A DNA stretch of 64,000 bases from an uncultured delta proteobacterium (GCA_963746605.1 CAVVCH010000054.1:21366-85365), one strand, 5' to 3'; counted from the stretch's first letter, positions 2,956-59,428 are shown. A program made the numbers and translations. Notes: generated by a model not told the origin, from the sequence alone.

Positions 2956-3049
2956 GGGTACACCTTTCCGCTTCCAGAGTGGAGGGACTATCTTCTTTCC
3001 TTAAATTTAATCCAAAATCAGAAATTCGAATCTCTGTTTTCCTTGAAGA

Positions 3050-3065
3050 AGCAAGTTCAATGCCA
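3050..3065 (-). promoter_or_regulatory. Candidate sigma-54 (-24/-12) promoter TGGCAT-N5-TTGCT upstream of the SDR gene
   Basis: Minus-strand reading of 3065-3050 is TGGCATtgaacTTGCT against consensus TGGCAC-N5-TTGCW; about 95 bp upstream of the SDR start; a sigma-54 activator gene lies immediately upstream. Confidence 0.5.
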
Positions 3066-3184
3066 AAACCTGCAAAAAGAAACCCGAACGAATTCAGAGC
3101 GTTATTCTGAGAGGTGCCTATTCGACGGATGGTCGCCCTGGAAAATCCTTTGCCAGGACCGGAAAGATCTTTGCCGGTTTGCCC

Positions 3185-4528
3185 TTAAAGGGAAAGCCGG
3201 TACTTTTGAATTTTAGTCCTCAAGGTCGGCCGGGAAATTTTTAATAATTTGGCCGCCTGGGTCAGATTCCCTTGCGTTGTTTTTAAAGCCCTTTTCAGGA
3301 TCTCTTCTTCGGCTTCGCCCAGGGAGGAAACATTCGGGCGATCATAAGGAAGGCGTTGGCTGCGGTTCAGAATCTCTTTGACCGTCTCCTCCAGAATAAC
3401 CTCCTCCTTGCCCAGAATGCAGGCCAGGGTCAGCAGGTTTTCCATCTCCCGTACATTTCCCGGCCAGTCATATTCGCTCAGCAATTGCACCGCCCGGTCT
3501 TCGATCTTTAATACCCTGGTATGGTGCTCGCGATTGATCTTATGCAAAAAATGCTGGATCAATAAAGGAATGTCTTCCCGGCGTTCCCGCAGGGGGGGGA
3601 TATAGATGGTCAGGACTTTGAGTCGGTAGTAGAGGTCTTTTCGAAATTTTCCCTGGGCGATGGCCTGATAGAGGTCCCGGTTGGTGGCGACCACGATTCG
3701 GGCATTGGATTTTTTCTGGGAAGTGCCCCCGATACGCTGGTATTCTTTGTCCTGCAAAAAACGCAGGAGCTTGCCCTGCATGGAAAGAGGGAGATCCGCG
3801 ATCTCGTCGAGAAAAATGGTCCCCTCCGCCGCCATTTCGAATAAGCCCCGGTGGCTCTCAACAGCCCCGGTAAAAGAGCCTTTTTCGTGGCCGTAGAGGG
3901 TGCTCTCCGACAGGGTTTCGACAATCGTGGTGCAGTCCACGGTGACAAAGGGGCCTTCCCGGTTGGGGCTGTTTTGATGGATGACCTGCGCCATCAACTT
4001 CTTCCCCGTTCCCGTTTCGCCTCGAATTCCGACCAGGGCCGTGGTATTGGAGATCAGTCCGATAAATTTATAAATATCCCGCATGGCCTTGCTCTGACCG
4101 ATCAAAGTAAATCCGTTAGCGGAAAGGGACGGCGGTTCCTGGAGAGGAGCAATCTGGGTATTTAAGGTTAAGATACGAATGGCCTTTTGTATTTTATGGT
4201 CCAATTCCTGGAGATCGATATCTTCCAGGACATAATCATAGGCCCCTAATTTTATGGCCTGAATGGTCGTATCCATATCCTGGAAGGCGGAAAAAAGGAT
4301 GGTCTTGGTTTGGGGGAATTCCTGCTGAATCCGCTGGAGTATCTCCAGGCTGTTCGTATCCGGCAGCGGGGCGCCTAAAAGGACCATGGCGGGTTTGCAG
4401 GTCATGAGCAGGGGCAGGGCCTCTTTCCCGGAGAGGGAAACCTTCATCTCATAGCGATCCTGGAAATGATGCCGGACCTTATCCTGAAAGGCTGGCCGGC
4501 CTCCAATGATCAACAATTTGCGTTGCAT
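3185..4528 (-). CDS. Sigma-54-dependent Fis-family transcriptional activator (NtrC-like, atypical receiver domain)
   Basis: 447 aa; AAA+ sigma-54 interaction domain (GETGTGK Walker A, GSFTGA), C-terminal Fis-type HTH QGNLTQAAKLLKISRPTL. Confidence 0.9.
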   Translation of the reverse strand: MQRKLLIIGGRPAFQDKVRHHFQDRYEMKVSLSGKEALPLLMTCKPAMVLLGAPLPDTNSLEILQRIQQEFPQTKTILFSAFQDMDTTIQAIKLGAYDYVLEDIDLQELDHKIQKAIRILTLNTQIAPLQEPPSLSANGFTLIGQSKAMRDIYKFIGLISNTTALVGIRGETGTGKKLMAQVIHQNSPNREGPFVTVDCTTIVETLSESTLYGHEKGSFTGAVESHRGLFEMAAEGTIFLDEIADLPLSMQGKLLRFLQDKEYQRIGGTSQKKSNARIVVATNRDLYQAIAQGKFRKDLYYRLKVLTIYIPPLRERREDIPLLIQHFLHKINREHHTRVLKIEDRAVQLLSEYDWPGNVREMENLLTLACILGKEEVILEETVKEILNRSQRLPYDRPNVSSLGEAEEEILKRALKTTQGNLTQAAKLLKISRPTLRTKIQKYRLSL

Positions 4529-4638: not shown

Positions 4639-4747
4639 GTCATTCTGAGCGAAGCGAAGAATCTCGTTTTTTAAACAGGTTGTAAAATCCTTCGCGGAGT
4701 TTACCCTGAGCCAAAGTCGAGATCCTTCGCTTCGCTCAGGATGACAG
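4639..4747. repeat. Family A palindromic element (GTCATTCTGAGCGAAGCGAAGAATCTCG ... CGAGATCCTTCGCTTCGCTCAGGATGAC)
   Basis: 28-bp inverted arms at 4639-4666 and 4719-4747; related copies at 13550, 27262, 56245 and 63744. Confidence 0.65.
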
Positions 4748-16052: not shown

Positions 16053-16337
16053 ATGAGGGCCTTTAAACGCGTTCCGAAGTGAAGAGCTGCTACCCGAGGA
16101 ATTATTGGGTTTATTCAGAACAATGGCTGGTTTTACTCATTGGCCCGCCGGAAGCTGAGACAACTTGAGATTGCCGGTAGGATAGATGATCTGAGAGTGC
16201 CGCCCGGAAATCGTCTTGAAACACTCAAAGGTGATCGTTACGGCCAGTACAGTATTCGTATCAACGATCAATGGCGTGTCTGTTTTAATTGGAATGAAGA
16301 AGTTGCAGAAAATGTTGAAATCGTGGATTACCATTAA
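16053..16337 (+). pseudogene. higB: HigB-family toxin, degraded (N-terminal part out of frame)
   Basis: C-terminal 65 codons read RKLRQLEIAGRIDDLRVPPGNRLETLKGDRYGQYSIRINDQWRVCFNWNEEVAENVEIVDYH, a typical HigB C-terminus; the only ATG (16053) gives MRAFKRVPK then a stop. Confidence 0.55.
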
Positions 16338-16349: not shown

Positions 16350-16602
16350 ATGAATAAACTCAAACCCATTACTCCCGGTGAAATCCTGCTGGAAGAATTT
16401 CTTAAACCGATGGGGTGAACCAGTTCGCTTAGCCAAAGACATAGGAGTCCCACCCCAGCGCATCAGCGATATTGTTGCCGGTAAGCGAGCCATACGGCGG
16501 ACACCGATGGCACTACGGCTGTCCAGATCCTCTGGTCTGACGAACGGCTACTTGGCTGCGCGCTCAGGCTGCCCATGCATCACTGAAATCGCGGAGCGTT
16601 GA
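16350..16602 (+). pseudogene. higA: HigA-family HTH antitoxin, frameshifted
   Basis: MNKLKPITPGEILLEEFLKPMG then a frame change; second frame ...LAKDIGVPPQRISDIVAGKRAI... is the Xre-type HTH. Confidence 0.55.
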
Positions 16603-16609
16603 ACTGATC

Positions 16610-17500
16610 GGTTCTGGCAAAAATCAGCCCCTCCCCACACCACCTAGCATGCGGGTCCGCACTAGGCGGTTCCCAGAGGCTACCGAGCCGTAGCCGGGTA
16701 ATGGATGTTTACCCACTGATCTTTGACAGACAGCAAACCTTGATCCTTGAGTCACGCCAAGGCGTGATCATGCCTGTCTGGGTGGCCAGCGTGCGTGAGA
16801 GTCGCCAGGGGCCTTTCCGGCTCATCCCGACCGAGATAGCGGTCCGCAGGTGTTCATTGGGATTGGGCTTATCGGCAACGCGCCGGCCACTCGCTCCCCC
16901 GGACGGGTTTATGGCGATGGTCGAGCTTACCGGGCCTTTTCCCTGCTCTGGGTTCGGTCCTTCGTTCGTTGATGGCGAACTACTATGACCTCGGCTGACT
17001 CCTGCCCGGTCAATCGACATGTTTCCAGGCCGGATGCTGTCCAATGTTAACTGGACCGCCTGCCGAACAGGTCTCCCCGGACTCAGTTCAGTACTCCCTC
17101 AGGGGTTAAGACGTGATCTGTCGTTACACAACCGCGGCATTTACCGCGTCTCCTAAACCCGGGGCTTTGTCATGTCGTGCTGACTTACCCGGAGACTTGG
17201 CCTTGTATGCCATTTCTGTACCCCGGATCAGGTCCGGGGCAGGCTTGGCTCATAGCTTTGCGCTCCAGCTTCCTTCGGACGATCCCTCGCGAGCATCGCC
17301 CTTGCTTTCGGCTAGTATTTATGTTCCTGTCTTACGACAGTACGGGTTTACATCAGGGGACTTTCACCCCATAAGATCACGCCCATGCCGGGCGTACACT
17401 AGAATCGTTCGCACCGGATCGGCACCGCTACCCCGGGACAAAACGCGGACATGAAGCTGGTCTCGTGACAAAATGGTCGAGGCTACCGATGGAAAGGATT
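16610..17500. other. ORF-free GC-rich segment of about 0.9 kb; candidate structured RNA or decayed element
   Basis: Six-frame ORFs here give only Pro/Arg/Ser/Gly-rich non-protein-like translations; many local hairpins, e.g. CCCCGGA-ucagg-UCCGGGG at 17221-17239. Confidence 0.2.
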
Positions 17501-18363
17501 ATGGAGGAATACGGACAAGAGGAACCGTGGATGTATAATTCAAAACAAAGTCCTTCGTAATGGTGCAACAAAGATCGATGAAGCAGTTGTATCCTGCTAA
17601 AGAACTTGCCTCCATTAGCTGTAGGTCGCAGGGAATGTTTTCCGGCATGCGGGACGTCATTATGTTTGATCGAAGCAGGTGTCTTGGCGCATATCTGTTT
17701 TTTGATATGCCAGGCGAGGCGAGCTACCTAACGGCAGGACATCTTGCGCAGGTCTTAGGAGGGAAGGCAAGTTTTAAGCGTGAATTGTCGCGCATTTGAT
17801 CAGAAATCCAATGCAAGTCAATCCTCTGGACCTCTATGGGGTCTTTCGTTTCTTTGCGATCCAAGAATTCTTGATGAACTGCTCTGGCATTTCCATAAGA
17901 AAGGAGGTTGGCCATTTCTTTCAGGCCCAGAGATTCGCCCTTTCGGCTCCGGTGGCCAGTTTCTGGATGTCCACGATTTCATGAACGCATGGGCAACGTT
18001 GGGAATCGGCGAACTCACTTTTGCCTTGGGCCAAACGATTGACTCAACTGCGGACATTCTTGCGGTCAATGCAATGCGTGCGGCGGGAATGAGCAACGTA
18101 CTGAATTTGGAGGCGGGCGAATTTTCAGAAGGCCTCTATCATTCTGAAATGGCAATACTTGTCATGCATATCGATCTGGGTACGGATTAGAAAACTCAGG
18201 CCAAGGTGAAGCCGCGAGAGGCTATAAAAGCAAGAAAATGCCCGAACAACCGCGTCAACACCGACCGGCGCCACACGGGTTTCCCAGAGCTCGTTCGCCG
18301 AGCAAAAATGGGGTCAAATCTTTATTATTGACATCTTCTGTTCTAATTTGATACAGGGATTCC

Positions 18364-18906
18364 ATGAGCCGACCTTTGCGCATCCGATATCCCGGGGCGG
18401 TATATCACGTCACCTGTCGGGGCAATGACCGTCAGGACATCTTCCGGGACGATACGGACCGGACGGAGTTCCTGGAAATCCTGGCGGGGTCCCAAACCAT
18501 CTATAACGTGAAGATGTACGCCGCGGTTTTGATGGGGAACCATTTTCATTTGCTGCTGGAGACCCCTCTGGGCAATCTGAACGAATTCATGCGGCGGTTT
18601 AACATCACGTATACCGGCTATTTCAACCGCCGGCACCGGCGGGTGGGCCACTTGTACCAGGGCCGATATAAAAGCATTCTGGTAGAAAAAGAGAGCTATC
18701 TGTCCGAGCTGTCCCGTTATATCCACTTGAACCCGGTCCGGACCCGAGAGCTGGAATCGGAGAACGCCAAAGTCCGGTGGCACTATCTGCTGGACTATCC
18801 CTGGAGCACCTTCCCGGGATATTTGAATGCCAAAGACCGATGGCCGGGGGTGGATTACGGGTTGGTCTTAGGTGAATTCGGCGTGGACAACCCGAATAAA
18901 AGATAA
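18364..18906 (+). CDS. Y1 HuH transposase-like protein (IS200-like fold), truncated paralog
   Basis: 180 aa nearly identical to the first 170 aa of ORF 20843..21823 (HVTCRGN, HFHLLL, YQGRYKS); diverges after ...EFG and ends early. Confidence 0.7.
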   Translation: MSRPLRIRYPGAVYHVTCRGNDRQDIFRDDTDRTEFLEILAGSQTIYNVKMYAAVLMGNHFHLLLETPLGNLNEFMRRFNITYTGYFNRRHRRVGHLYQGRYKSILVEKESYLSELSRYIHLNPVRTRELESENAKVRWHYLLDYPWSTFPGYLNAKDRWPGVDYGLVLGEFGVDNPNKR

Positions 18907-19262
18907 AGTAATGGAACACGTGTTCTCCGGACGTCTTAGTCACGCGGGCATCGATACAGCGAAGCGAAAATCGTCGGCGGTCAATGTTCATGGTACCGGG
19001 TCGGGGAATACCCAACAGGATGCCGGGATACACCATCTAATGCAACGTGCTTCGATCGATGATGTCATTTCGACATGAAGCCTTGACTTGGGGTATGGGA
19101 TCCCAACGGGGCAGGCCCGGTTTGGCTAACAGCATAGAAGCCGATCGAGTGGGCGGAGTTAGATCTGCCAGACGGGGGACCGGGTTTGCCGCCTTGGCTG
19201 GATATTGGCGTTAGCCCGGAGACAAGATTGACAAAAGGCACACATTGTCGTAATCATATTAT

Positions 19263-19541
19263 ATGAATGTCTTTCGATGGGATAATGAAAAAAACGAGAT
19301 GCTCAGGAAGAACAGAGGTGTTTGTTTTGAACAGGTTGTCATACTGATGGAAAGAGGAGATGTTCTCGATACAATAGAACATCCAAACCAGGATAGATAT
19401 CCAGGACAAAAGATCGCCATAGTCAGGATTGATGACTACGCATATCTCGTTCCTTATGTTGAAAAAAGTGAGGAGCTGTTTCTCAAAACCATTATCCCCA
19501 GTAGAAAGGCTACAAACAAGTATGTGAGGACAAAGAAATGA
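19263..19541 (+). CDS. brnT: BrnT-family toxin
   Basis: 92 aa; FRWDNEKNEMLRKNRGVCFEQVV fits the BrnT N-terminal pattern; TTGACA box at 19228-19233. Confidence 0.7.
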   Translation: MNVFRWDNEKNEMLRKNRGVCFEQVVILMERGDVLDTIEHPNQDRYPGQKIAIVRIDDYAYLVPYVEKSEELFLKTIIPSRKATNKYVRTKK

Positions 19542-19831
19542 AAAAGATAGTTTTGGATGCCGAGGAAAAGGATATCCTTGAATCATATGAGCGTGGAGAA
19601 TGGGTGCCGGTCAAGAATCCGAAGAAGGAAATAGCGAAGCTTCGGAGGTACGCAAGGAATACGCTGCAAAAAGACAAGAGAATCAACATTCGAATGTCGT
19701 CGAAGGACTTAGACCAGGTGCAGGTCATCGCCGCACAAGAAGGCATCCCTTATCAGACTCTGGTATCCAGTATCATTCATAAGTATGTTTCCGGATATCT
19801 TATCGAGAAAGAAAGAAGGCTTAACGATTAG
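19538..19831 (+). CDS. brnA: BrnA-family antitoxin
   Basis: 97 aa; KRINIRMSSKDLDQVQVIAAQEGIPYQTLVSSIIHKYV is the BrnA C-terminal motif; 4-bp ATGA overlap with brnT. Confidence 0.7.
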   Translation: MKKIVLDAEEKDILESYERGEWVPVKNPKKEIAKLRRYARNTLQKDKRINIRMSSKDLDQVQVIAAQEGIPYQTLVSSIIHKYVSGYLIEKERRLND

Positions 19832-19895
19832 CTGCACCGGACGAGGCAAAACTAGCACGCCGGTGAGCACCATGTTAGCCTCAGGAGGATAGAGG

Positions 19896-20354
19896 ATGGA
19901 AGAGAAGAATAAAATAACCGAGGCGCTTCGTTTGATATTCGAAGGAATAGACCGCCTGAAGAGGGCATTCCCGAAGAAGGAGTTCACGATTGATGGACGT
20001 CTCGTCGGGGACATAGGCGAGATTATCGCTGCACTTGAATATGATGTTGAACTCTTTGATGTCCTGTGCGAAGGGTATCACGGCAAGACGTCGGATGGTC
20101 GTCTGGTACAAGTTAGGGCGACATTTAAAGACTCTCTTACGTTCCCCTCTGTCCCTGACTATTATTTAGGTCTTAAGCTACACCGAGACGGGACCCACGA
20201 AGAAATCTACAACGGTCCCGGAAAACTGATTTACGAGAAATACAAGCATAGAAGTGGCATAGGAAAGAAATTGCTATCGTTCCCTAATATTGATCTACGA
20301 GAGCTATCTGCCAGGGTACTAAGAAATGATCGTATTCCAAAGCGCAAGGGCTAA
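19896..20354 (+). CDS. Hypothetical protein (152 aa) in the cargo segment
   Basis: Uninterrupted ORF with no family recognised by eye; appears AT-richer than flanking chromosome. Confidence 0.5.
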   Translation: MEEKNKITEALRLIFEGIDRLKRAFPKKEFTIDGRLVGDIGEIIAALEYDVELFDVLCEGYHGKTSDGRLVQVRATFKDSLTFPSVPDYYLGLKLHRDGTHEEIYNGPGKLIYEKYKHRSGIGKKLLSFPNIDLRELSARVLRNDRIPKRKG

Positions 20355-20367
20355 CAAGTGCGTCCAC

Positions 20368-20449
20368 CCGATCGCCGAAAAAACCGGCTCCGGGTGATGT
20401 CATCGTTGATCGTCAAGGTGGAACCGGTCGCGGTGGACGCCTCCTTCGT
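20368..20449. repeat. Cassette-associated repeat, copy A (part 1 and part 2)
   Basis: Part 1 CGATCGCCGAAAAAACCGGCTCCGGGTGATG recurs at 23429-23459; part 2 GTTGATCGTCAAGGTGGAACCGGTCGCGGTGGACGCCTCCTTCGTA recurs at 25938-25982. Confidence 0.5.
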
Positions 20450-20594
20450 AAATGGGTAGATGAGGAGTCATGACGTTCTTTGGATGCTTGTGCAGGTCAG
20501 AGACCGGATCAGCTCCAGCGAAACCTTTCCCTGCTGTCCTTTCCGGTGCCCCTCATGGGATTAGTCAGGGACAAATACCGGGCGAGGTTGTTGC

Positions 20595-20810
20595 ATGAAT
20601 TCTACCGTATCTACTTTTCCAGAACGCGTGGCCTGGATCCTGTTGGGATTGGGCCTCCTCTTCGCCCTCCTTTTCCACCTGGTGCCAGGACTACTGGCGG
20701 GCCTTCTGGTTTACAGTCTCATACATCGCCTGGACCTGCAACTTCACCGCAGGCGCTGGACCAGCAAGAAAAATGCGCGCCTGGCGGCCCTGGGGTCATC
20801 TTATTGTTGA
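20595..20810 (+). pseudogene. Possible N-terminal fragment of a membrane protein (AI-2E/PerM-like) cut at the edge of the duplicated Y1 segment
   Basis: VAWILLGLGLLFALLFHLVPGLLAGLLVYSLIHRLDLQLHRRRW resembles AI-2E transporter N-termini; ORF ends where the duplicated sequence begins (20806). Confidence 0.25.
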
Positions 20811-20842
20811 CATCTTCTGTTCCAATTTGATACAGGGATTCC

Positions 20843-21823
20843 ATGAGCCGACCTTTGCGCATCCGATATCCCGGGGCGGTATATCACGTCACCTGTCGGG
20901 GCAATGACCGTCAGGACATCTTCCGGGACAATACGGACCGGACGGAGTTCCTGGAAATCCTGGCGGGGTCCCAAACCATCTATAACGTGAAGATGTATGC
21001 CGGGGTTTTGATGGGGAACCATTTTCATTTGCTGCTGGAGACCCCTCTGGGCAATCTGAACGAATTCATGCGGCGGTTTAACATCACTTATACCGGCTAT
21101 TTCAACCGCCGGCACCGGCGGGTGGGCCACTTGTACCAAGGCCGATATAAAAGCATTCTGGTAGAAAAAGAGAGCTATCTGTCCGAGCTGTCCCGTTATA
21201 TCCACTTGAACCCGGTCCGGACCCGAGAGCTGGAATCGGAGGACGCCAAAGTCCGGTGGCACTATCTGCTGGACTATCCCTGGAGCACCCTACCGGGATA
21301 TTTGAATGTCAAAGACCGATGGCCGGGAGTGGATTACGGGTTGGTTTTAGGTGAATTCGGCGGGGACAACCCGAAGGGACGGCGTGGTTATGGAAAACGG
21401 ATCCGAGAGGACCTCGTCGGGGGCATCGAACTGAAAGGAAAAATAGTCGGCGGGTGTGTTCTGGGCCGGGCGGGTTATATCCAATGGGTCCGGGAAAAAC
21501 ACATTAAGGAACTGCCGGTCGGGGATTACACCGGATATAAAGCCTTGAAACGCTATCGATCCAAGGAGCAGGTCCTGGATTTGCTGGCAGTAGAAACCGG
21601 CCTGAGTTTGGAAGAGGTTAAATCTTCCAAGGGGGACCGGCGCCGGTTGGCCATGGAATTGCTGTACCGGGTGGGCGGATTGACCGGAGACGAGATCGGA
21701 AGCCTTTTCGGGATAGGCGCCAGCGCAGTCAGTCAGGAAAGGAAAAGGCTGGTGTCCCGAATGGCGGAAGATGAGGCCGTGAAAAAGCTGTTTGAGGAAC
21801 TGTTTTCGAAATGTTCGGTATAG
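20843..21823 (+). CDS. Y1 HuH transposase-like protein with C-terminal DnaA-like HTH domain, full-length paralog
   Basis: 326 aa; HuH motif HFHLLL, tyrosine region YQGRYKS, C-terminal ...GLTGDEIGSLFGIGASAVSQERKRL. Confidence 0.75.
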   Translation: MSRPLRIRYPGAVYHVTCRGNDRQDIFRDNTDRTEFLEILAGSQTIYNVKMYAGVLMGNHFHLLLETPLGNLNEFMRRFNITYTGYFNRRHRRVGHLYQGRYKSILVEKESYLSELSRYIHLNPVRTRELESEDAKVRWHYLLDYPWSTLPGYLNVKDRWPGVDYGLVLGEFGGDNPKGRRGYGKRIREDLVGGIELKGKIVGGCVLGRAGYIQWVREKHIKELPVGDYTGYKALKRYRSKEQVLDLLAVETGLSLEEVKSSKGDRRRLAMELLYRVGGLTGDEIGSLFGIGASAVSQERKRLVSRMAEDEAVKKLFEELFSKCSV

Positions 21824-21998
21824 ATCCCGGGCCAAGTCGTGAGGCCTGGCCCTGGCATGATTTGAAGGGTTATGGAAAAGAAGGAATATAATAAATAAAG
21901 AATTGACCCCTTTTCTCCTTTTTACGCTTTTCTGACCGAAATTTGGGTGAAAAGGATTTTGGCAGAGGAACCATAAACAGTTATTCTTACAAAGGAGG

Positions 21999-22880
21999 AT
22001 GTCAGTGAACGTTAAAGATTTGTATCAAAACAAAAAACCGGCTGTTTCCATGGAATTTTCTCCCCCCAGAGACCAAAAAGCGGCTGAATCCTTTTCGGAC
22101 ACTGTGGATAGCCTATCACGGCTGAAGCCGGATTACCTGTCCGTTACATTCGGCGCCGGTGGTTCCACCCGTGAAGGGTCCTACCAGACGGTCAAGCAGT
22201 TGATAGCCGACAAACACTTGCCTACGGTGGCTTACATAGCGGGATACGGTCTGGGGCCTGATCAGATTGTCAGCGTTCTGGACGATTATAAAGCGCTGGG
22301 CGTCCAAACCATTTATGTAATCAGAGGCGATCAACCCAAAGAAAAGGATTTTACCGCCCATCCGGATAGTTTTGCCCATGCTTCGGATATAATCGCTTTT
22401 ATAAAAAAGCGCTATGATTTTATACTTGGATGTGCCGGATACCCCGAAGGGCATGTCGAAGCTGAAAGTCTGGAAAAAGACATCGAATATCTGAAGCAAA
22501 AAGTGGACAACGGCGTGAACTATGTTGTGACTCAGTATTTCTACGACAACGACTATTTTTTGCGCTTCGTTGACAAGTGCCACACGATTGGCATCAATGT
22601 GCCGATTATTCCGGGCATTATGCCGGTGTATACAGTAAAAATGACCCAAATGTTGTCCAAGATATGTGGCTCCAAAATTGTACCTCAATTGCAGCGTCGT
22701 TTGGATGGCGTGGATCAGGCCGACAGTCAGGCGGTACTCCAGGTAGGCATCGATTTTGCCACCGAGCAATGCCAAGGTTTGCTCAAAGAGGACGTGGCCG
22801 GACTTCATTTTTACACGATGAACCGAAGCTATTCGACCACAGAAATCATCAATCGATTGAAACAAGACCATCTGTTGTAG
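21999..22880 (+). CDS. metF: 5,10-methylenetetrahydrofolate reductase
   Basis: 293 aa with MetF-like layout (SVTFGAGGSTR, YVVTQYFYD); appears AT-richer than neighbouring genes; GTG at 22005 is an alternative start. Confidence 0.85.
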   Translation: MSVNVKDLYQNKKPAVSMEFSPPRDQKAAESFSDTVDSLSRLKPDYLSVTFGAGGSTREGSYQTVKQLIADKHLPTVAYIAGYGLGPDQIVSVLDDYKALGVQTIYVIRGDQPKEKDFTAHPDSFAHASDIIAFIKKRYDFILGCAGYPEGHVEAESLEKDIEYLKQKVDNGVNYVVTQYFYDNDYFLRFVDKCHTIGINVPIIPGIMPVYTVKMTQMLSKICGSKIVPQLQRRLDGVDQADSQAVLQVGIDFATEQCQGLLKEDVAGLHFYTMNRSYSTTEIINRLKQDHLL

Positions 22881-23015
22881 ACAAATATATCAGTCTAAGC
22901 AAAGGAGGACGGAGCCGAGCGTTTCCGGTTCTGGTCAAGAGCACAAAAAGGGGCAATCTGAACGGCGCGAGAGGGAAAAGTTGACTGCCTTATTTTTTGT
23001 GGATACAATAATTCA

Positions 23016-23342
23016 ATGAGAATCGGCTTTGATCCCGCCAAGGGAAAACGATTACCATTGACTGACGAAGACGGCGAGGTCCCCGAACTCACCGCCGATG
23101 ACTTCAAGCACTTCAAACCCGCTTCCGAGGTGCTGCCCCCAGGGCTGTTGGCGGTGCTCCCCAGGCGCGGCCGGCCTACGGTGAAATCTCCAAAGAAGGC
23201 GGTGAACATTCGTCCGGCACCTGACATACTCTCTGCTTTCAAGTCCACGGGTAAAGGCTATACGCATCGGCTATACTCACTCCACTTTGGGTTCAGGTTA
23301 TACGCTAGAGTCGGAACTTATGAAGGGCCTGAAGGGTGTTAG
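23016..23342 (+). CDS. BrnA-like (DUF4415-type) small protein, C-terminus possibly frameshifted
   Basis: ...PELTADDFKHFKPASEVLPP...KKAVNIRPAPDILSAFKSTGKGY fits the BrnA/DUF4415 pattern; no adjacent BrnT. Confidence 0.4.
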   Translation: MRIGFDPAKGKRLPLTDEDGEVPELTADDFKHFKPASEVLPPGLLAVLPRRGRPTVKSPKKAVNIRPAPDILSAFKSTGKGYTHRLYSLHFGFRLYARVGTYEGPEGC

Positions 23343-23428
23343 CGTAGGATGTCACGAGATTTGCAATAGTTGCCAAGATCTGCCTCGTTAGACTTGGAAA
23401 GAAATCCATAGGCCGATGCCATGCAGCG

Positions 23429-23459
23429 GATCGCCAATAAAGCCGGCTCCCGCTGATGG
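23429..23459. repeat. Cassette-associated repeat, copy B (part 1 only)
   Basis: GATCGCCAATAAAGCCGGCTCCCGCTGATGG, about 80% identical to 20368-20398. Confidence 0.45.
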
Positions 23460-23537
23460 CCGTGATTCACCAGGGAGGTCACTTTGAGATACGCGGTCTA
23501 TGGTCCCCAGCTTGTCCGGGCTTTAGGAGGGACCAAG

Positions 23538-25682
23538 ATGGCCAAGGAAACAGTGACCAGCATCTGCGGCATATGCCCCGGCGGATGCGGCGTGAATGTG
23601 GTACTGGTCGACGGGAAGGTTGAGAAGATTTCGCCCATCAAGGGCCATCCTATCGGTGTCGTCTGTATCCGAGGGCTTCATTCAAAGGAAATCATCTATT
23701 CCAGAGACCGGTTGAAGTACCCTTTGCTCCGGGTGGGGGAAAAGGGTGAAGGACACTTCGAACGGATCACCTGGGATGAGGCCATGGACCGCATTGTCCA
23801 TGGGTTTCAGAAAACCAAGGATGAATACGGCGCACAAGCCGTCATGGCCTACTTTGGCCGCGGCAGTTTCGAATCAAACGTTGTGGATGTCTTCGGAGCC
23901 CCGGATCCCACCAGTAAAGGCGTCACCGGTTTTTTGTACCCTTTCGGCTCACCCAACGGCACGGGCGTTTCTTCGGTTTGTTCTGTGTCGTATAACCTCC
24001 TCGCCGCAATACCGACCCTCGGAACTTCCATGCATGCCCTGTACCCGGATTTTGAGAATACGGATATGGTTATCATCTGGGGAACAAATCCGCCCACGGA
24101 TTCGCCTCCGAACAAGGTGAAGAAGATCCTGGCGGCGAAAAAGCGGGGCGCCAGGGTGGTCGTGATCGATCAAATGCGATCCGACATGGCAAAACTTGCG
24201 AACCAATGGATCGGCATCCGCTCCGGCACGGATGGGGCATTGGCTTTGAGCCTCATGCATGTCATTGTGAACGAAGGACTCTTTGACGAGGCGTTTGTGC
24301 GGGACTGGACTACGGGTTTTGAGGACCTTCGAGACTACGTACAACAATTCCCCCCGAAAAAGGCTGAAAAGATTACCCGCGTACCCAGGGAGACCATCTT
24401 CGAGCTGGCTCGATCCATCGCCGGCGCCAAAGGCGCCTCGCTGCACATGTACACGGGACTGGAGTACAGCAACAGCGGCGTTCAGAGCATCCGAGCCGCG
24501 TTGTGCCTTTGGGCCATAACAGGCAACATGGATGTGCCGGGTGGGCTGATGTTCAGACCCCCTAGTCCGGTAAAGTTCCCGCGTATCAAACTGGACCCGC
24601 CCCAAGGGGTGAAACCCATCGGCGCAGACAAGTATCCCTATTTTTGCGACCTGCTCAAATCGGCGCAGTTTTTAGAAGCTCCCCGGGCGATTTTGCGGGG
24701 TGATCCCTATCCAGTCAAGACCCTATTGATTTTCGGGGCCTCGCTCTTGACCAGCTTGCCTGATCCCGAGATGTGGAAGAAATGCTTCAAACAGCTAGAT
24801 TTCATGGTGGTCTACGATAGATTTATGACGGCTGACGCCGCGTACGCGGACATCGTACTCCCGGCCACCACGAATTACGAGAATCTGGGGTATCAGAGAT
24901 ACCCCGGAGGATACTGTCAGTTGCGGCAGAGGGTGATCGATCCGCTGGGAGAGGCGAAATCCGGCTACACGTTCTTGGCGGCACTGGCCAAGGGGCTGGG
25001 TTATGGGGATCTCTTCCCGACAACGGATGAAGATCGCCTCAAATTTGCCTTCGAGACCGGCCCCGTATCCTTGGAAGAATTGAAGGCGCATCCGGAAGGC
25101 GTCAAATTTGATGCCGGCAGACAGGAATACCGGAAATACGCCAAGGGTCTTCTGCGCAAAGGGGGTGAACCGGGATTTGATACGCCTTCGGGGAAGGTAG
25201 AGCTCGCATCGAGCCTGTTGGAGAAGTACGGCTATGATGGCCTGCCTGTATACCTGGAGCCCACTGAAGGTCCCCTGGGCAGCCCAGAACTTTATAGGAA
25301 ATACCCCTTGGTGTTCAACAGCGGGGCTAGGCTTCAGTCGGCGTTTCGATCACAGCATTTGAACATCCCGGGGCTGTTGAAGCTACAACCAAAACCGCAA
25401 GTTCTTATTCACCCCCTGGATGCGAAGGCGAGGGAAATTGAAAACGGGGACCAGGTCTGGGTGGAGTCCCCCAGGGGTCGAGTGAGCTTTTGGGCCAAGG
25501 TGACGGACGACGTGATGACGGGCCAAGTGGAGGTGAATGTGGGCGGAGGGAGCCCCATCCATGCGGAGGGGTGGCGGGAAGCGAACGCAAACTACCTGAC
25601 CGACTATGAAAATCGCGATCCGATTTCGGGTTTCCCGGTATATAAGGCGTTGCTATGCGAGGTGAAAAAACGGGAGGACTGA
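23538..25682 (+). CDS. Molybdopterin-dependent oxidoreductase (DMSO reductase / formate dehydrogenase superfamily)
   Basis: N-terminal Cys cluster SICGICPGGCGV, MopB-like length (about 715 aa), strong RBS AGGAGG before ATG 23538. Confidence 0.85.
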   Translation: MAKETVTSICGICPGGCGVNVVLVDGKVEKISPIKGHPIGVVCIRGLHSKEIIYSRDRLKYPLLRVGEKGEGHFERITWDEAMDRIVHGFQKTKDEYGAQAVMAYFGRGSFESNVVDVFGAPDPTSKGVTGFLYPFGSPNGTGVSSVCSVSYNLLAAIPTLGTSMHALYPDFENTDMVIIWGTNPPTDSPPNKVKKILAAKKRGARVVVIDQMRSDMAKLANQWIGIRSGTDGALALSLMHVIVNEGLFDEAFVRDWTTGFEDLRDYVQQFPPKKAEKITRVPRETIFELARSIAGAKGASLHMYTGLEYSNSGVQSIRAALCLWAITGNMDVPGGLMFRPPSPVKFPRIKLDPPQGVKPIGADKYPYFCDLLKSAQFLEAPRAILRGDPYPVKTLLIFGASLLTSLPDPEMWKKCFKQLDFMVVYDRFMTADAAYADIVLPATTNYENLGYQRYPGGYCQLRQRVIDPLGEAKSGYTFLAALAKGLGYGDLFPTTDEDRLKFAFETGPVSLEELKAHPEGVKFDAGRQEYRKYAKGLLRKGGEPGFDTPSGKVELASSLLEKYGYDGLPVYLEPTEGPLGSPELYRKYPLVFNSGARLQSAFRSQHLNIPGLLKLQPKPQVLIHPLDAKAREIENGDQVWVESPRGRVSFWAKVTDDVMTGQVEVNVGGGSPIHAEGWREANANYLTDYENRDPISGFPVYKALLCEVKKRED

Positions 25683-25690
25683 GGTACATT

Positions 25691-25895
25691 ATGAAGAACT
25701 CAAAGGCGCTTGGGAACAACGTCTCGGTTGAGGTTACGCATATCTCCAAAACAGGAGTCTGGCTGCTTGCCCGAGAAAGAACCGTATGTCGACCATTTCT
25801 ATTGGCCTGATCTTGACGTAGACCTGACTTCCGAGATCATTGACTATCCCGAAAGATTTCCCTTGAAAGTAAAAGAGTGCTCAATAAGACGATGA
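25691..25895 (+). pseudogene. DUF2442-like small protein, frameshifted
   Basis: Frame 1 MKNSKALGNNVSVEVTHISKTGVWLLAR, frame 2 ...PYVDHFYWPDLDVDLTSEIIDYPERF; the motif W-P-x-LD resembles DUF2442. Confidence 0.3.
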
Positions 25896-25937
25896 ACCCG
25901 ATCATGTCCCTGGCGGGCCACTCCGGGTTAGCTCGGT

Positions 25938-25982
25938 GTTGATCGTCAAGGTGGAACCGGTCGCGTGGACGCATCCTTCGTA
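25938..25982. repeat. Cassette-associated repeat, copy C (part 2 only)
   Basis: GTTGATCGTCAAGGTGGAACCGGTCGCGTGGACGCATCCTTCGTA, near-identical to 20404-20449. Confidence 0.5.
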
Positions 25983-26151: not shown

Positions 26152-27243
26152 TCATAAACGGCCGCCATGGCCGGAATGGCCGGTTGGCCGGGAATCCGGG
26201 TTTTGAGATACCCGCTTCTTGTTTTTCCAGATTTCCTCCAGATGAAAGACCTGGACGCGGTGATTCCGCTGGTCGGTGACCAGGATGCTCTTATAAAGAG
26301 GACTGTAATGGATGCCGCCCGGAGAGTTGAACTGACCCGGACGAATCCCTATACCCCCGCCGAAAGAATGCACCGGCCGGCCATCGGGCGTGAAGACCTC
26401 GATCTTGCCCCCGGTTTCATCCACCGCGTACAAATACCCCAGGTCGTCAAACGTCAACCCTTTCACTTCGTTGGCGAACATCCCCGGCCCGAAGCCCTGT
26501 TTCCCCAAAGTCCCGAGGTGCTCTCCCTCGGCGCTGAAGCGGTGGATGCGGGAATGCTTTTCATCCGCCACGAAGATTTCCTCCCCGGGCGGGGGCCCGA
26601 CGGCCACCGATTCGATCCTTTCCATCCGTCCTCCCTCGGGGTTTAACGTCCCAAACTTCCGGACAAAGGTGAAGTTTTTGTCAAAAACCTGAACATCGTC
26701 CCGAGTCCCGTCACCCACATAGAGGTTTCCCCGGGAGTCCAGGGCCAATCCCATGGGCTCCAGAAACTCGCCGTCGCCGGTTCCCTTCCGCCCAAAAGCG
26801 GATAGAAATTTTCCTTCCAGATCAAAAACCTGGATGCGGAAATTGCCCTGGTCGGAGACGATGATCCGCTGCTGCCCGTCCACCACGATGCCCGTGCACT
26901 GATTGAACTGGCCGGGGCCCGCACCCGGTTCTCCGAAAGAGGTCATGAACCGACCGCCCCCGGTGAAGAAGCTGACCCGGTTGTTTCCCTTGTCGGTAAC
27001 CAGTATCCTTCCCCGGGGATCCACCCAGACACCGTCGGTAGTCTCAAAGGCGCCGGGACCGTTTCCAGCCTTTCCAAAGACCAGTGCGGTAGTGACGTCC
27101 AACGCCTTCGGCCGCGCCGGTTCTTTCTGCGTCACTTTCGCTGTCTTCGCCGCGTCTTTTTTCTGTATAGCCGCCGCCGGATCGATGGTGAGGCCGATCG
27201 CGACCAGGATCAACCAGATCGTCGTTCCCCATTTGATTCTCAT
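26152..27243 (-). CDS. NHL-repeat beta-propeller protein, secreted
   Basis: Repeated ...GNLYVGD/...RVQVF blades; signal peptide after MRIKWGTTIWLILVAIGL; the ORF track's N-terminal extension is translation of a family A repeat, so the start is set at 27243. Confidence 0.8.
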   Translation of the reverse strand: MRIKWGTTIWLILVAIGLTIDPAAAIQKKDAAKTAKVTQKEPARPKALDVTTALVFGKAGNGPGAFETTDGVWVDPRGRILVTDKGNNRVSFFTGGGRFMTSFGEPGAGPGQFNQCTGIVVDGQQRIIVSDQGNFRIQVFDLEGKFLSAFGRKGTGDGEFLEPMGLALDSRGNLYVGDGTRDDVQVFDKNFTFVRKFGTLNPEGGRMERIESVAVGPPPGEEIFVADEKHSRIHRFSAEGEHLGTLGKQGFGPGMFANEVKGLTFDDLGYLYAVDETGGKIEVFTPDGRPVHSFGGGIGIRPGQFNSPGGIHYSPLYKSILVTDQRNHRVQVFHLEEIWKNKKRVSQNPDSRPTGHSGHGGRL

Positions 27244-27261
27244 GTTTGGTGCTCCTTCCTT

Positions 27262-27325
27262 CGCAGAGTTTACCCTGAGCCGAAAACCGAGATCCTTCGC
27301 TTCGCTCAGGATGACAGCAGGCGAA
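27262..27325. repeat. Family A repeat unit
   Basis: CAGAGTTTACCCTGAGCCGAAAACCGAGATCCTTCGCTTCGCTCAGGATGACAG. Confidence 0.6.
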
Positions 27326-27395
27326 GGGCTCAGAATCACGGTTCGGGACTTTTTGCGAACATAATCCAAAATGGCGCTCGTGACCGGGAAAAAAG

Positions 27396-30824: not shown

Positions 30825-30956
30825 GGGGGCTGACCCGGCTCTGAAAAATTGCCCTTCCGCTCCCTGCCTGGGTGAGGGCCGGGAGCGGGGGGCCGCCCCG
30901 CTTCGGCCTGACTTTCCCTCCCTCATCATGATCCCGCGAAGATACTGACTGAAAAG

Positions 30957-31043
30957 ATGAACGTCGAACATCGAACTTCCAACATCGAATGTTGAATGAA
31001 TGGAGTCTTGTTTTTCATTCGACATTGGGCGTTCGATGTTCAT
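30957..31043. repeat. Family D palindromic element (GAACATCGAAC ... GTTCGATGTTC)
   Basis: ATGAACGTCGAACATCGAACTTCCAACATCGAATGTT...CGTTCGATGTTCAT; second copy at 41518-41657. Confidence 0.65.
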
Positions 31044-31066
31044 TTTAATACGATCGGATAGGCGGA

Positions 31067-41509: not shown

Positions 41510-41517
41510 AACGAAAA

Positions 41518-41657
41518 ATGAACATCGAACATCGAACTTCCAACATCGAATGTTTAATGAAAAAGATGAAGAAGCAGAAATAGGGATCCCCTGTTCGGCA
41601 ATAGAGGTTTGTTTTTCATTCGAGGTTGGACGTTCGATGTTCGATGTTCGACGTTCA
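41518..41657. repeat. Family D palindromic element
   Basis: ATGAACATCGAACATCGAACTTCCAACATCGAATGTT ... GACGTTCGATGTTCGATGTTCGACGTTCAT. Confidence 0.65.
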
Positions 41658-41686
41658 TTTTGTACAAGAAAAAGAGACCCTGAGCG

Positions 41687-48757: not shown

Positions 48758-48855
48758 TTTAATACGAAAATAACCAAAGACAGGGTTCAAGGGGTCGAGT
48801 GTAGGGGAGGGGTTAATCCCCTCCCGCACCCAGCCGGGCATAAATCATACTCCTG
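48758..48855. repeat. Family B composite element containing palindrome GTAGGGGAGGGGTTAATCCCCTCCC
   Basis: TTAATACGAAAATAACC...GGGTTCAAGGGGTCGAGTGTAGGGGAGGGGTTAATCCCCTCCCGCACCCAGCCGGGC; paralogous copy at 57011-57176, palindrome again at 63861-63885. Confidence 0.65.
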
Positions 48856-59288: not shown

Positions 59289-59428
59289 CAGGCGGGCGGG
59301 GATAAACCCCGCCACGATGAGATCCTCCCAGCTTGGGTAAACACGGTGAATAGGCGGGCGGGGATAAACCCCGCCCTACGGCAACACTCGTCCGAGCAAG
59401 GTAGGGGCGGGGTTTATCCCCGCCCGCA
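59289..59428. repeat. REP-like elements (GGCGGGCGGGGATAAACCCCGCC), two direct and one inverted copy
   Basis: Copies at 59291-59313 and 59353-59375, inverted copy GTAGGGGCGGGGTTTATCCCCGCCCGC at 59401-59427; the same unit recurs at 59926-60008. Confidence 0.7.

What the first reader, a model, noticed from the sequence alone, without database searches (positions are those of the whole stretch)
20368..25982. Shared 30-45 bp sequences recur immediately downstream of three small accessory genes
Part 1 (CGATCGCCGAAAAAACCGGCTCCGGGTGATG) and part 2 (GTTGATCGTCAAGGTGGAACCGGTCGCGGTGGACGCCTCCTTCGTA) both follow the 152-aa hypothetical at 20368-20449. Part 1 alone follows the BrnA-like gene at 23429-23459, and part 2 alone follows the DUF2442-like gene at 25938-25982. 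Copy A is framed by an imperfect inverted repeat (GCGTCCACC ... GGTGGACGC) and starts TAACAAG right at the stop codon. That is reminiscent of cassette recombination sites, but the sites do not match canonical attC cores and no integrase is present, so this is only a hypothesis; they may instead be a repeat family or remnants of a duplicated gene end.
Basis: partly seen in the sequence, partly recalled or inferred. Interest (0 to 1): 0.45.

Follow-up and report, generated by a model that had tools for sequence, protein, structure and literature searches.

The report
Integron attC sites in a decayed array
The recurring sequences are integron cassette recombination sites (attC hairpins) left in a chromosome stretch with no integrase, plus a 45-base flank that starts exactly at the recombination point; this is a known kind of element, not a new one.

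Summary
"Part 1" is a canonical integron attC site. Copy A (20349-20411) reads GGCTAAC…GTTGATC, overlaps the stop codon of a DUF6998 gene, and folds as an R-box/L-box hairpin with one bulged base.

The same DUF6998 cassette occurs in dozens of metagenome arrays. There, similarity to the window starts exactly at G|TTAGCC and ends at the attC. One of these arrays lies next to a true integron integrase.

Covariance models built from those foreign arrays find four sites in the window, all on the + strand:
- A, E 2e-10.
- A missed site at 19819-19880, E 2e-7.
- B, 23414-23464, a relic without R boxes.
- C, 25879-25944, with AAC mutated to AAT.

A fifth site at 19124-19216 looks canonical by eye only.

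"Part 2" is not part of any attC. It begins exactly at the crossover G|TT behind two different attCs, is 94% identical between them for 45 nt, and then stops being shared. It is most likely the retained start of a neighbouring unit. Its origin is unresolved.

No integrase lies in the window, so this is a decaying CALIN-type cluster. It is a new member of a known kind and of modest interest.

The parts
19124..19216 (+). attC-1 candidate (93 nt). R'' is GGCTAAC and R' is GTTAGCC, perfectly complementary. Crossover at G19210|T19211.
   Evidence: It is the only perfectly complementary 7/7 R''/R' pair found in 15-27 kb by the AAC…GTT scan. It shares GGCTAACA…CCGATCG with copy A. It is NOT significant with model R2 (10.2 bits, E 2.7), and its fold is no better than shuffles (z 0.05). 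Canonical by eye only.
19211..19874 (+). Cassette 1: BrnT-like toxin (19263-19541) and CopG-type antitoxin (19538-19831).
   Evidence: Pfam BrnT_toxin 1.2e-5 (26.0 bits, below the 34.5-bit curated cut-off) and CopG_antitoxin 2.9e-6. Bounded by the GTT of attC-1 and the GTT of attC-2. GC 0.40-0.48, against 0.55-0.59 in the flanks.
19819..19880 (+). attC-2 (62 nt), GCTTAAC…GTTAGCC.
   Evidence: R1 30 bits, E 1e-6. R2 36.9 bits, E 1.6e-7, against 21.4 bits on the minus strand. DNA fold z -3.5 for the 19815-19890 segment, and z -2.25 for the bottom strand of 19819-19880 alone.
19875..20405 (+). Cassette 2: DUF6998 gene (19896-20354) with its attC.
   Evidence: Pfam DUF6998 1.9e-39. The same cassette occurs in many arrays, with similarity starting at G|TTAGCC. 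It has 2/531 differences from L004, against 16/153 just downstream (Fisher p 2e-9).
20349..20411 (+). attC-3, which is 'part 1' of copy A. R'' is GGCTAAC (containing the stop TAA), UCS AAGT, L'' GCGT[C]CACCC, loop GATCGCC…CTCC, L' GGGTGATGT, R' GTTGATC. Crossover at G20405|T20406.
   Evidence: R2 (window not in its training set) 47.6 bits, E 2e-10. Orthologous attCs behind 89-93% identical DUF6998 genes end in GTTAGGC, GTTGGAA and GTTATGC, each followed by different DNA. The circularised form folds closed, z -3.98, 0/200 shuffles.
20405..20451 (+). Part 2, copy A. DNA immediately 3' of the crossover, containing an SD-like AAGGTGG and GTG at 20433.
   Evidence: 44/47 identical to 25938-25982, whereas the attCs to the left are 56% identical and the next 45 nt 37%. 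In L004 it diverges at about 9%, like the DNA downstream of it and unlike the cassette.
23016..23342 (+). Degenerate BrnA-like antitoxin gene, with a BrnT-like N-terminal remnant fused to it (the fusion is my reading, not tested).
   Evidence: Pfam BrnA_antitoxin 4.4e-13, but only profile positions 2-57 of 68.
23414..23464 (+). attC-B relic, which is 'part 1' of copy B. The L box CAGCGG/CCGCTG and the loop are intact. Both R boxes are lost (no AAC; the R' position reads GTGATTC).
   Evidence: R1 47.2 bits, E 2e-12. R2 29.9 bits, E 1.2e-5. Both are local matches to model positions 7-57/58. The closest relatives are attCs in L020, L021, L026 and L016/L031.
25691..25895 (+).
   Evidence: Two overlapping reading-frame fragments. 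No significant Pfam hit for either fragment, even at E 10.
25879..25944 (+). attC-C. R'' is GCTCAAT (AAC mutated to AAT) and R' is GTTGATC. Crossover at G25938|T25939.
   Evidence: R1 26.9 bits, E 1e-5. R2 27.4 bits, E 5.8e-5. It is 86% identical over 71 nt to the attC upstream of DUF6998 in L020, and that similarity ends exactly at GTT.
25938..25982 (+). Part 2, copy C.
   Evidence: One 1-nt deletion and one substitution relative to copy A.

Best explanation
'Part 1' is an integron attC site.

What is shown:
- Copy A (20349-20411) is the attC of a DUF6998 gene cassette (19875-20405).
- It sits in a short cassette array: attC-1, a BrnT/CopG toxin-antitoxin cassette, attC-2, the DUF6998 cassette, attC-3.
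- The array has no integrase in the window, so it is CALIN-type.
- Copies B and C are attCs of the same sequence family behind two decayed small genes 3.0 and 5.5 kb downstream.

What is inferred from established integron biology (Nivina 2016, PMC5027507):
- The bottom strand of each site folds into an imperfect hairpin made of an R box, an unpaired spacer, an L box with one extrahelical base, and a variable loop.
- An integron integrase supplied from elsewhere would cut between A and C of the bottom-strand AAC, which is between G and TT of the top-strand GTT. It would excise the gene plus attC as a circle.
- By sequence, A and attC-2 look recombination-competent, C is weakened, and B is dead.

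'Part 2' is not part of the site. It is the first 45 nt of the DNA lying 3' of the crossover, kept behind two different attCs. Recombination at G|TT has swapped what lies to its left. It most likely is the truncated 5' leader and start of a neighbouring cassette, or the native flank of a reused insertion point. That would be comparable to the truncated qacEΔ1 cassette that starts the 3'-conserved segment of class 1 integrons. This last step is inference.
For: 1. Cassette boundaries. In L006/L007, L014, L015 and about 25 other DUF6998 loci, similarity to the window begins exactly at G|TTAGCC, 15-20 nt before the ATG. It continues through GGCTAAC at the stop codon and a 55-70 nt hairpin, and ends at GTTRRRY. 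Unrelated DNA lies on both sides.
2. Circular form. G plus the cassette's first six bases, TTAGCC, is the perfect complement of R'' GGCTAAC. That form folds closed, z -3.98.
3. Covariation in 15 family members. 83.9% of cells are paired, against 75.8±1.4 in shuffles (0/500 reach the observed value) and 28-45% when the partners are slid. There are 37 double-change cells against 16.4 expected. AAC and GTT are invariant in 15/15. [quoted passage not shown]
4. Covariance models. R1, and R2 (built from 60 sites of foreign arrays), find A, attC-2, B and C, and no other + strand site in 64 kb with E below 0.1. The only other low-E row is the reverse read of attC-2 (E 0.0026 with R2, E 0.12 with R1).
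5. Related contigs are true arrays: 8 sites in 6.4 kb in L014, 7 in L021, and 57 of 60 hits on the gene strand.
6. L031 carries an integron integrase (TIGR02249, 458 bits against a cut-off of 265). It is divergent from an array whose first attC is of the B type and which contains DUF6998.
7. Divergence from L004 jumps from 0.4% inside the cassette to 10.5% after the crossover (p 2e-9).
8. A and C are 56% identical before the crossover G, 94% from it for 45 nt, and 37% after that.
9. C's attC is 86% identical to an attC in L020, and that similarity stops exactly at GTT.
Against: - No integrase or attI lies in the window, so activity here is unproven.
- attC-1 is not significant with either model.
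- As it sits in the array, A folds only modestly better than shuffles (z -1.9).
- B lacks both R boxes, and C has AAT instead of AAC.
- IntegronFinder's own attC model could not be run. R1 and R2 are home-made and family-biased.
- The origin of part 2 is not demonstrated. It was found nowhere else except L004. Both copies stop being shared at the same point (CTTCGTA). A simple 'start of the next cassette' reading explains that only if both copies descend from one truncation event.
Confidence: 0.87

Rival explanations
1. The two part-2 copies are the ends of one 5,533-bp unit (20406-25938). It starts TTGATC directly after a crossover and ends in attC-C, so it is formally delimited like a giant cassette. 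On this reading, ordinary chromosomal genes (metF, the Mo-oxidoreductase) were picked up next to genome-inserted cassettes by imprecise integrase-mediated excision and re-insertion. It would be a snapshot of gene capture.
For: - Direct 45-nt repeats lie exactly 5,533 bp apart, each starting at a crossover G|TT.
- The Mo-oxidoreductase is homologous to its 80-94% identical orthologues only over the CDS plus 13-31 nt. Their conserved upstream region is replaced here by the attC-B relic.
- metF has cassette-like low GC, 0.45-0.49.
- Loot et al. (bioRxiv 10.1101/2022.09.11.507474) showed that cassettes insert at genomic GWT sites and excise imprecisely with genome changes.
Against: - No circular or empty-site allele was found.
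- Orthologue neighbourhoods differ everywhere, so no ancestral state can be reconstructed.
- attC-C has AAT and attC-B lacks its R boxes, so the unit is not mobile now.
- The shared sequence ends at GTA, which is not the GWT/GTT used by known integrases.
- The unit also contains an IS200-like gene whose second copy lies at 18322, so ordinary rearrangement can explain the patchwork.
Confidence: 0.08
2. The repeats are a host-specific dispersed repeat family (REP/BIME- or MITE-like). They might be mobilised by the IS200-like/RAYT-like Y1 transposase at 20843-21823 and tend to land after genes.
For: - A Y1_Tnp gene lies 390 nt downstream of copy A, with a truncated duplicate at 18364.
- The genome does carry true REP-like GTAG palindromes elsewhere (families D2 and D6).
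- The repeats contain hairpins.
Against: - The hairpins carry invariant AAC…GTT at their base.
- They recur in foreign contigs as same-strand arrays of small ORFs, and one such array lies next to an integron integrase.
- The duplicated Y1 unit starts at 20801, well away from copy A.
- No Y1 gene accompanies the family in related arrays.
- Only 4-5 copies occur in 64 kb, all clustered in 19.1-25.9 kb.
Confidence: 0.02
3. The shared sequences are leftovers of protein-coding 3' ends (duplicated gene ends), or encode small peptides or terminators.
For: - In one frame, A and B both end PIAEKTGSG* / RIANKAGSR* at the same TGA.
- Part 2 reads …VKVEPVAVDASFVNG*, and L004 changes TAG to TAA and GCC to GCG.
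- A 22-mer of part 2 matches nusA of Synergistetes.
Against: - No ORF longer than about 30 codons covers any copy.
- A and C differ by a 1-nt indel inside part 2.
- The A/B/C substitutions are compensatory in a stem rather than at synonymous positions.
- The nusA matches are an unrelated coding coincidence.
- Neither strand has a GC stem followed by a T run.
Confidence: 0.03

Closest known systems
attC sites of gene cassettes in sedentary chromosomal integrons of environmental bacteria
   Same: - RYYYAAC…GTTRRRY cores, and an R box and L box separated by an unpaired spacer.
- An extrahelical base on the arm carrying the top-strand AAC, and a variable loop.
- Length 56-66 nt for the four model-supported window sites (attC-1 is 93 nt); related sites in the fetched arrays range from 56 to about 130 nt.
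- Overlap with the stop codon of a small ORF with no evident promoter.
- Same-strand arrays.
- Cassette identity that starts and stops at G|TT.
- Family-level sequence similarity among sites of one environment or taxon (Nivina 2016, PMC5027507; Ghaly 2021, PMC8352920).
   Different: - No integrase or attI lies within 19 kb upstream or 38 kb downstream.
- Two of the sites are mutated in the invariant triplets.
- Recombination has not been shown.
CALIN / SALIN (clusters of attC sites, or single attC sites, lacking an integron integrase; Cury 2016, PMC4889954; Loot et al., bioRxiv 10.1101/2022.09.11.507474)
   Same: - At least 2 attC sites with gaps under 4 kb and no intI.
- Toxin-antitoxin and unknown-function cassettes.
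- A neighbouring IS-like gene and pseudogenes, as expected if rearrangement split an integron or if cassettes inserted at genomic sites.
   Different: - The cluster is interleaved with large genes that do not look like cassette genes (metF, a 714-aa Mo-oxidoreductase).
- It carries a 45-nt direct repeat at two crossovers, which the CALIN literature read here does not mention.
3'-conserved segment of class 1 integrons (qacEΔ1, a truncated cassette that follows the last attC in many different arrays). From my own knowledge; not checked in the papers read.
   Same: An identical stretch begins right at the crossover behind different attCs, and is a truncated unit rather than a site.
   Different: Only 45 nt, only two copies, no recognisable gene, and a common-ancestor platform has not been shown.

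Membership tests
integron attC site | Core sites 5'-RYYYAAC (R'') and GTTRRRY-3' (R') with invariant AAC/GTT triplets | tested here: met
   - A: GGCTAAC / GTTGATC.
- attC-2: GCTTAAC / GTTAGCC.
- attC-1: GGCTAAC / GTTAGCC.
- AAC and GTT are invariant in 15/15 family members.
- Not met by B (no AAC, and GTG at the R' position). Half met by C (AAT / GTT).
integron attC site | Single strand folds into an imperfect hairpin: R box, unpaired central spacer, L box, variable terminal structure | tested here: met
   - Covariation: 83.9% of cells paired, 7 of 11 L-helix pairs with compensatory changes, slid controls 28-45%.
- Bottom-strand folds: L015 z -3.75, and circularised A z -3.98.
integron attC site | Extrahelical base(s) on the arm that carries AAC in the top strand, which is opposite the AAC in the bottom strand | tested here: met
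   A single unpaired column 16 lies in the 5' (R''-L'') arm in all 15 sequences. It is seen as an extrahelical G in the bottom-strand fold of L015. Only one such base is present here, whereas most mobile-integron sites have two or three (PMC5027507).
integron attC site | Lies at the 3' end of an ORF, in the same orientation, in arrays; the unit gene+attC is bounded by G|TT in different contexts | tested here: met
   The DUF6998 cassette appears in more than 25 contexts with boundaries at G|TTAGCC and at the GTT of its attC. Arrays hold 5-8 sites. C's attC homologue in L020 ends at GTT.
integron attC site | Associated with an integron integrase (IntI, TIGR02249) | tested here: inconclusive
   None in the window. 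Present next to a related array with the same attC family and the same cassette in L031 (458 bits). A truncated IntI is present in L020. The rest of the source genome is not available.
integron attC site | Recombined by IntI at the A/C of the bottom-strand AAC | not testable with these tools
   Needs a conjugation or excision assay. The only indirect support is the divergence jump at the crossover.
integron attC site | Detected by the curated IntegronFinder attC covariance model | not tested
   The model is not available here, and Rfam returned no match on any of the sites. Proxy models R1 and R2 were used instead.
CALIN | Two or more attC sites clustered (gaps of at most 4 kb) with no intI nearby | tested here: met
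   Sites at 19124, 19819, 20349, 23414 and 25879, with gaps of 0.6, 0.5, 3.0 and 2.4 kb. No integrase in the 64 kb. Definition from PMC4889954.
REP / RAYT repeat system | Many short palindromic copies genome-wide, often flanking a RAYT gene in inverted orientation, with no AAC/GTT cores and no cassette structure | tested here: not met
   The copies are clustered, all on one strand, with AAC/GTT cores. The Y1 gene's duplicated unit starts at 20801 and excludes the repeats.

The most novel reading that the evidence does not exclude
The two 45-nt part-2 copies mark a 5.5-kb unit (20406-25938) delimited like a single giant cassette. It begins right after a crossover, ends in attC-C, and carries metF and a Mo-oxidoreductase stripped of its native upstream region. 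If so, it would be a natural fossil of an integron integrase capturing ordinary chromosomal genes through genome-site insertion and imprecise excision. That bears on the unsolved question of how cassettes are born.
Probability: 0.08. Interest if true: 0.7.

Novelty: new member of a known kind. Interest (0 to 1): 0.3.

Why it matters
The result turns an unexplained repeat into an ordinary, well-understood element: a decaying integrase-less cassette cluster in an uncultured anaerobe. The anaerobe is probably Desulfobacterota-like, judged only from the names of the closest Mo-oxidoreductase homologues.

Three points are useful:
- It documents DUF6998 as a very common integron cassette gene, with more than 1,200 homologues, mostly on short array-like contigs.
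- It defines an attC sequence family shared by many sediment arrays and tied to a real IntI.
- It gives a clean natural example of sites at three stages of decay: intact, AAC mutated to AAT, and R boxes lost.

The only open point with wider interest is why an identical 45-nt stretch sits at two crossovers flanking 5.5 kb of non-cassette genes.

Tried and rejected
- **Rfam.** Gathering-threshold and E-value searches found nothing on the repeats.
- **tRNA/tmRNA.** None found.
- **Exact-pattern scans for part 2.**
  - 185k genomes gave only nusA coincidences in Synergistetes.
  - JGI metagenomes gave 0 hits.
  - IMG/VR gave 0 hits.
  - PLSDB, searched with blastn in distant mode rather than an exact pattern, gave no match.
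- **Coding-remnant idea.** The shared stops and the TAG-to-TAA change looked suggestive. I rejected it because of the indel between A and C, the absence of ORFs, and the stem covariation.
z is only -1.9 / -1.7, and the hairpin is not conserved in C. The inverted repeat arises because part 2 contains an L'-like GGTGGACGC.
- **The 41-nt stretch after B as a third part 2.** Not significant (local score p 0.71).
- **Empty-site comparison through Mo-oxidoreductase orthologues.** The neighbourhoods differ in every relative, so no ancestral state can be inferred.
- **Exact-protein look-ups** for the CopG antitoxin, the oxidoreductase and the Y1 gene: not on record.
- **attC-1.** Could not be confirmed by either model.
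- **The crude AAC…GTT hairpin scan across the whole window.** Dominated by other palindromic repeats; useful only locally.

Full report
**1. Checking the observation**

Both quoted strings are in the window, one base off the stated coordinates. Part 1 lies at 20369-20399 and part 2 at 20405-20450.

A sensitive blastn of copy A against the window finds two other copies:
- Copy C, 63 nt at 87% identity, E 4e-14.
- Copy B, 35 nt at 80% identity, E 8e-4, which is marginal on its own.

Nothing else turns up.

An alignment of the three copies shows that C is not "part 2 alone". To the left of part 2 it shares ACCCGATC and CTCCGGGT with A, around a divergent middle.

**2. The lead that changed the picture**

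I folded the DNA after each small gene. The best hairpin was not at A, B or C. It was at 19815-19890, directly behind a CopG-type antitoxin gene. It reads GGCTTAAC…GTTAGCC and folds with z -3.5 on both strands.

A local scan for AAC…GTT pairs found a second site at 19124-19216, GGCTAAC…GTTAGCC. Copy A starts with the same GGCTAAC.

Gene content from Pfam:

| Coordinates | Pfam result |
|---|---|
| 19263 | BrnT-like (E 1.2e-5, 26 bits, below Pfam's 34.5-bit cut-off) |
| 19538 | CopG antitoxin |
| 19896 | DUF6998 (1.9e-39) |
| 20843 | IS200-like Y1 transposase |
| 21999 | MTHFR |
| 23016 | BrnA antitoxin, truncated profile match |
| 23538 | Mo-oxidoreductase |

Neither fragment of the "DUF2442-like" gene gets a Pfam hit.

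**3. The decisive comparison**

The DUF6998 protein has more than 1,200 homologues, mostly on short metagenome contigs. I fetched about 90 loci that encode it and read the flanks of about 35 of them.

In the loci with 89-93% identical proteins (L006/L007, L014, L015):
- Similarity to the window begins exactly at G|TTAGCCTCAGGAGGATAGAGGATG, with unrelated DNA to the left.
- It runs through the gene.
- It continues through GGCTAACAAGT.CGTCCACCCGATCGCC…CCGGGTGACGCCATC.
- It ends at GTTAGGC, GTTGGAA or GTTATGC, after which each locus has a different next gene.

This is the signature of an integron gene cassette. The attC of the window's cassette is therefore 20349-20411, which is "part 1" plus its flanks. 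Its R'' is GGCTAAC and its R' is GTTGATC.

The cassette's first six bases, TTAGCC, complete a perfect R box when the cassette is circularised. That form folds into a closed hairpin with z -3.98, and 0 of 200 shuffles fold as well.

**4. The attC family**

The same attC type follows many unrelated genes in L014, L016, L020, L021, L026, L029 and L031.

I aligned fifteen members over 69 columns and counted pairs for the R-box / L-box / loop-stem structure:

| Measure | Observed | Control |
|---|---|---|
| Cells paired | 83.9% | 75.8±1.4 in shuffles (0/500 reach it); 28-45% with partners slid |
| Cells with changes on both sides | 37 | 16.4 in shuffles |
| L-helix pairs with compensatory changes | 7 of 11 | not applicable |
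| AAC and GTT | invariant in 15/15 | not applicable |

There is one always-unpaired column, on the arm that carries the top-strand AAC. Nivina et al. 2016 (PMC5027507) describe extrahelical bases in exactly this position.

The differences among A, B and C in the inner stem are compensatory: CACCC/GGGTG, CAGCG/CGCTG and AACCC/GGGTT.

**5. Covariance models**

R1 was built from the 15 sites, one of which is copy A. R2 was built from 60 sites that R1 found in foreign loci, so the window is not in its training set. Both were run over the whole window with filters off.

| Site | R1 | R2 | Note |
|---|---|---|---|
| A, 20349-20411 | 72 bits | 47.6 bits, E 2e-10 | in R1's training set |
| attC-2, 19819-19880 | 30 bits | 36.9 bits, E 1.6e-7 | minus strand only 21 bits |
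| B, 23414-23464 | 47 bits | 29.9 bits | local match lacking both R boxes; the R' position reads GTGATTC |
| C, 25879-25944 | 27 bits | 27.4 bits | R'' is GCTCAAT |

Nothing else in 64 kb reaches E below 0.1, apart from the reverse-strand read of attC-2 itself. There is a weak candidate at 18241-18299 (E 0.3). attC-1 scores only 10 bits, so it stays canonical by eye only.

C's attC is 86% identical over 71 nt to the attC upstream of DUF6998 in L020, and that similarity ends exactly at GTT.

**6. Are these really integrons?**

The related contigs are same-strand arrays: 8 sites in 6.4 kb in L014, 7 in L021, 5 in L020 and 5 in L016. Of the 60 hits, 57 lie on the gene strand.

L031 encodes an integron integrase (TIGR02249, 458 bits against a cut-off of 265; Pfam Phage_int_SAM_4 and Phage_integrase). 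It is divergent from an array whose first attC is of the B type and which contains a 90% identical DUF6998 cassette. L020 has a truncated IntI next to an IS256 fragment.

The window itself has no integrase. By the definition of Cury et al. 2016 (PMC4889954), this is a CALIN. The gaps between sites (0.6, 0.5, 3.0 and 2.4 kb) are all under the 4-kb clustering threshold.

**7. Evidence of recent mobility**

L004 is an independent assembly of a relative. It differs from the window at 2 of 531 cassette positions but at 16 of 153 positions just after the crossover (Fisher p 2e-9). So the cassette is much younger at this locus than the DNA on its right.

The cassettes are also GC-poor, 0.40-0.49 against 0.55-0.59 in the flanks.

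L004 begins exactly at the G of GTTAGCC. That fits an assembly-graph break at a cassette boundary, but the contig also ends in a Nextera adapter, so I treat it as suggestive only.

**8. Part 2**

A and C were compared in three consecutive stretches:

| Stretch | Identity |
|---|---|
| From R'' to the base before the crossover G | 56% |
| From the crossover G for 45 nt | 94% (44/47) |
| The next 45 nt | 37%, no better than expected for unrelated sequence |

Part 2 therefore starts exactly at the recombination point behind two different attCs. It is not part of either site.

In L004 it diverges like the DNA downstream of it: 4 differences in 45 nt. It contains an SD-like AAGGTGG and a GTG with six shared codons.

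Its 3' half, GGTGGACGCC-TCCTTC-GTAAAT, resembles an attC 3' arm (compare L015: GGGTGACGCC-ATC-GTTAGGC).

I found part 2 nowhere else.

My best reading is that it is the retained start of a neighbouring unit, either a truncated cassette or the native flank of a reused insertion point. Upstream of it, cassettes have been exchanged by recombination at G|TT. This is like the truncated cassette that begins the 3'-conserved segment of class 1 integrons; that comparison rests on my own knowledge.

A more adventurous reading is not excluded. The two copies lie 5,533 bp apart and bracket an IS200-like gene, metF, the BrnA relic with attC-B, the Mo-oxidoreductase, and the frameshifted small gene with attC-C. 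That stretch is formally delimited like one giant cassette. The oxidoreductase shares only its CDS (plus 13-31 nt) with its 80-94% identical orthologues, and their conserved upstream region is replaced here. Loot et al. (bioRxiv 10.1101/2022.09.11.507474) showed genomic insertion at GWT sites and imprecise excision. However, the shared sequence ends at GTA, the sites are decayed, and no empty-site allele or circle could be found. I give this reading about 8%.

**9. Rivals rejected**

- A REP/RAYT-type repeat. The copies are clustered, all on one strand, and carry AAC/GTT cores. The duplicated Y1 unit begins at 20801.
- Coding remnants or terminators.

**10. Verdict**

These are integron attC sites at three stages of decay in an integrase-less cluster, plus a 45-nt flank of unresolved origin that begins at the crossover. 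This is a new member of a known kind and of modest interest.

Noticed in passing
window 16598-17404 (minus strand): An ORF-less group II intron. Rfam D1D4-3 scores 93 bits and D1D4-1 63 bits. D5/D6 (RF00029) scores 27 bits, below threshold. The 5' end reads GTGCG at 17404. The 3' end abuts the stop of a frameshifted HigA next to HigB (16140-16337). The flank at 17405 reads CGGATCGGCACCGCT, like the start of the attC-family loop, so it may be a group IIC-attC-type insertion into a cassette site.
   Followed up: partly
window 18322-18890 and 20801-21823: Two copies, 98% identical, of an IS200-like Y1_Tnp (RAYT-like, 326 aa) gene with its promoter region. The first is truncated. They bracket the three-site cassette array, so they could have driven rearrangements.
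   Followed up: partly
window 23507-25682: The Mo-oxidoreductase is homologous to its 80-94% identical orthologues only over the CDS plus 13-31 nt. The upstream region conserved in L094, L096 and L098 is replaced here by the attC-B relic. The gene's neighbours differ across the relatives examined (three distinct contexts; L094/L095 and L098 share a downstream DUF1614 gene).
   Followed up: partly
window 48801-48827, 57067-57093, 59290-59427, 59926-60004, 63860-63935: A REP-like family of GTAG-headed palindromes (GTAGGGGCGGGGTTTATCCCCGCCC), present in both orientations, often as inverted pairs.
   Followed up: no
window 4688-4747, 27257-27317, 63731-63765: A roughly 60-nt dispersed element (…GAGTTTACCCTGAGCC…GAGATCCTTCGCTTCGCTCAGGATGACAG). 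One copy lies inside the 5' end of the ORF at 26152-27369.
   Followed up: no
window 34850/34949, 37707/37868, 45796/45911: Intergenic arrays of the heptamer TTGCTGG. Each is paired with an inverted AACCAGC array about 100 nt away.
   Followed up: no
window 30953-31044 and 41514-41659: Long near-perfect palindromes built from CGAACATCGAAC-type units, sharing a 48-nt repeat at 94% identity.
   Followed up: no
L004 1-723: This independent contig begins exactly at the G of GTTAGCC (the cassette boundary) and ends in a Nextera adapter sequence (CTGTCTCTTATACACATCT).
   Followed up: partly
L008 ~930-1010; L011/L019 downstream of DUF6998: In these loci the DUF6998 cassette ends with a degenerate site whose 3' core reads GTAATTC or GTAATCC (GTA, not GTT). 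It is followed by mutually homologous DNA (…AACTTA.TG…ATTTGTAGGTG…). The shared part 2 in the window also ends at GTA.
   Followed up: no
window 18241-18299: A weak extra attC candidate, CCCGAAC…GTTCGCC (R2 13.7 bits, E 0.3), just upstream of the truncated Y1 gene.
   Followed up: no
L031 913-2268 (minus) and 2516-3486: A complete integron on a sediment metagenome contig. It has an IntI (TIGR02249, 458 bits) divergent from an array that contains a B-type attC and a 90% identical DUF6998 cassette. The IntI ORF is 452 aa, with about 140 extra N-terminal residues that may reflect an over-long ORF call.
   Followed up: partly
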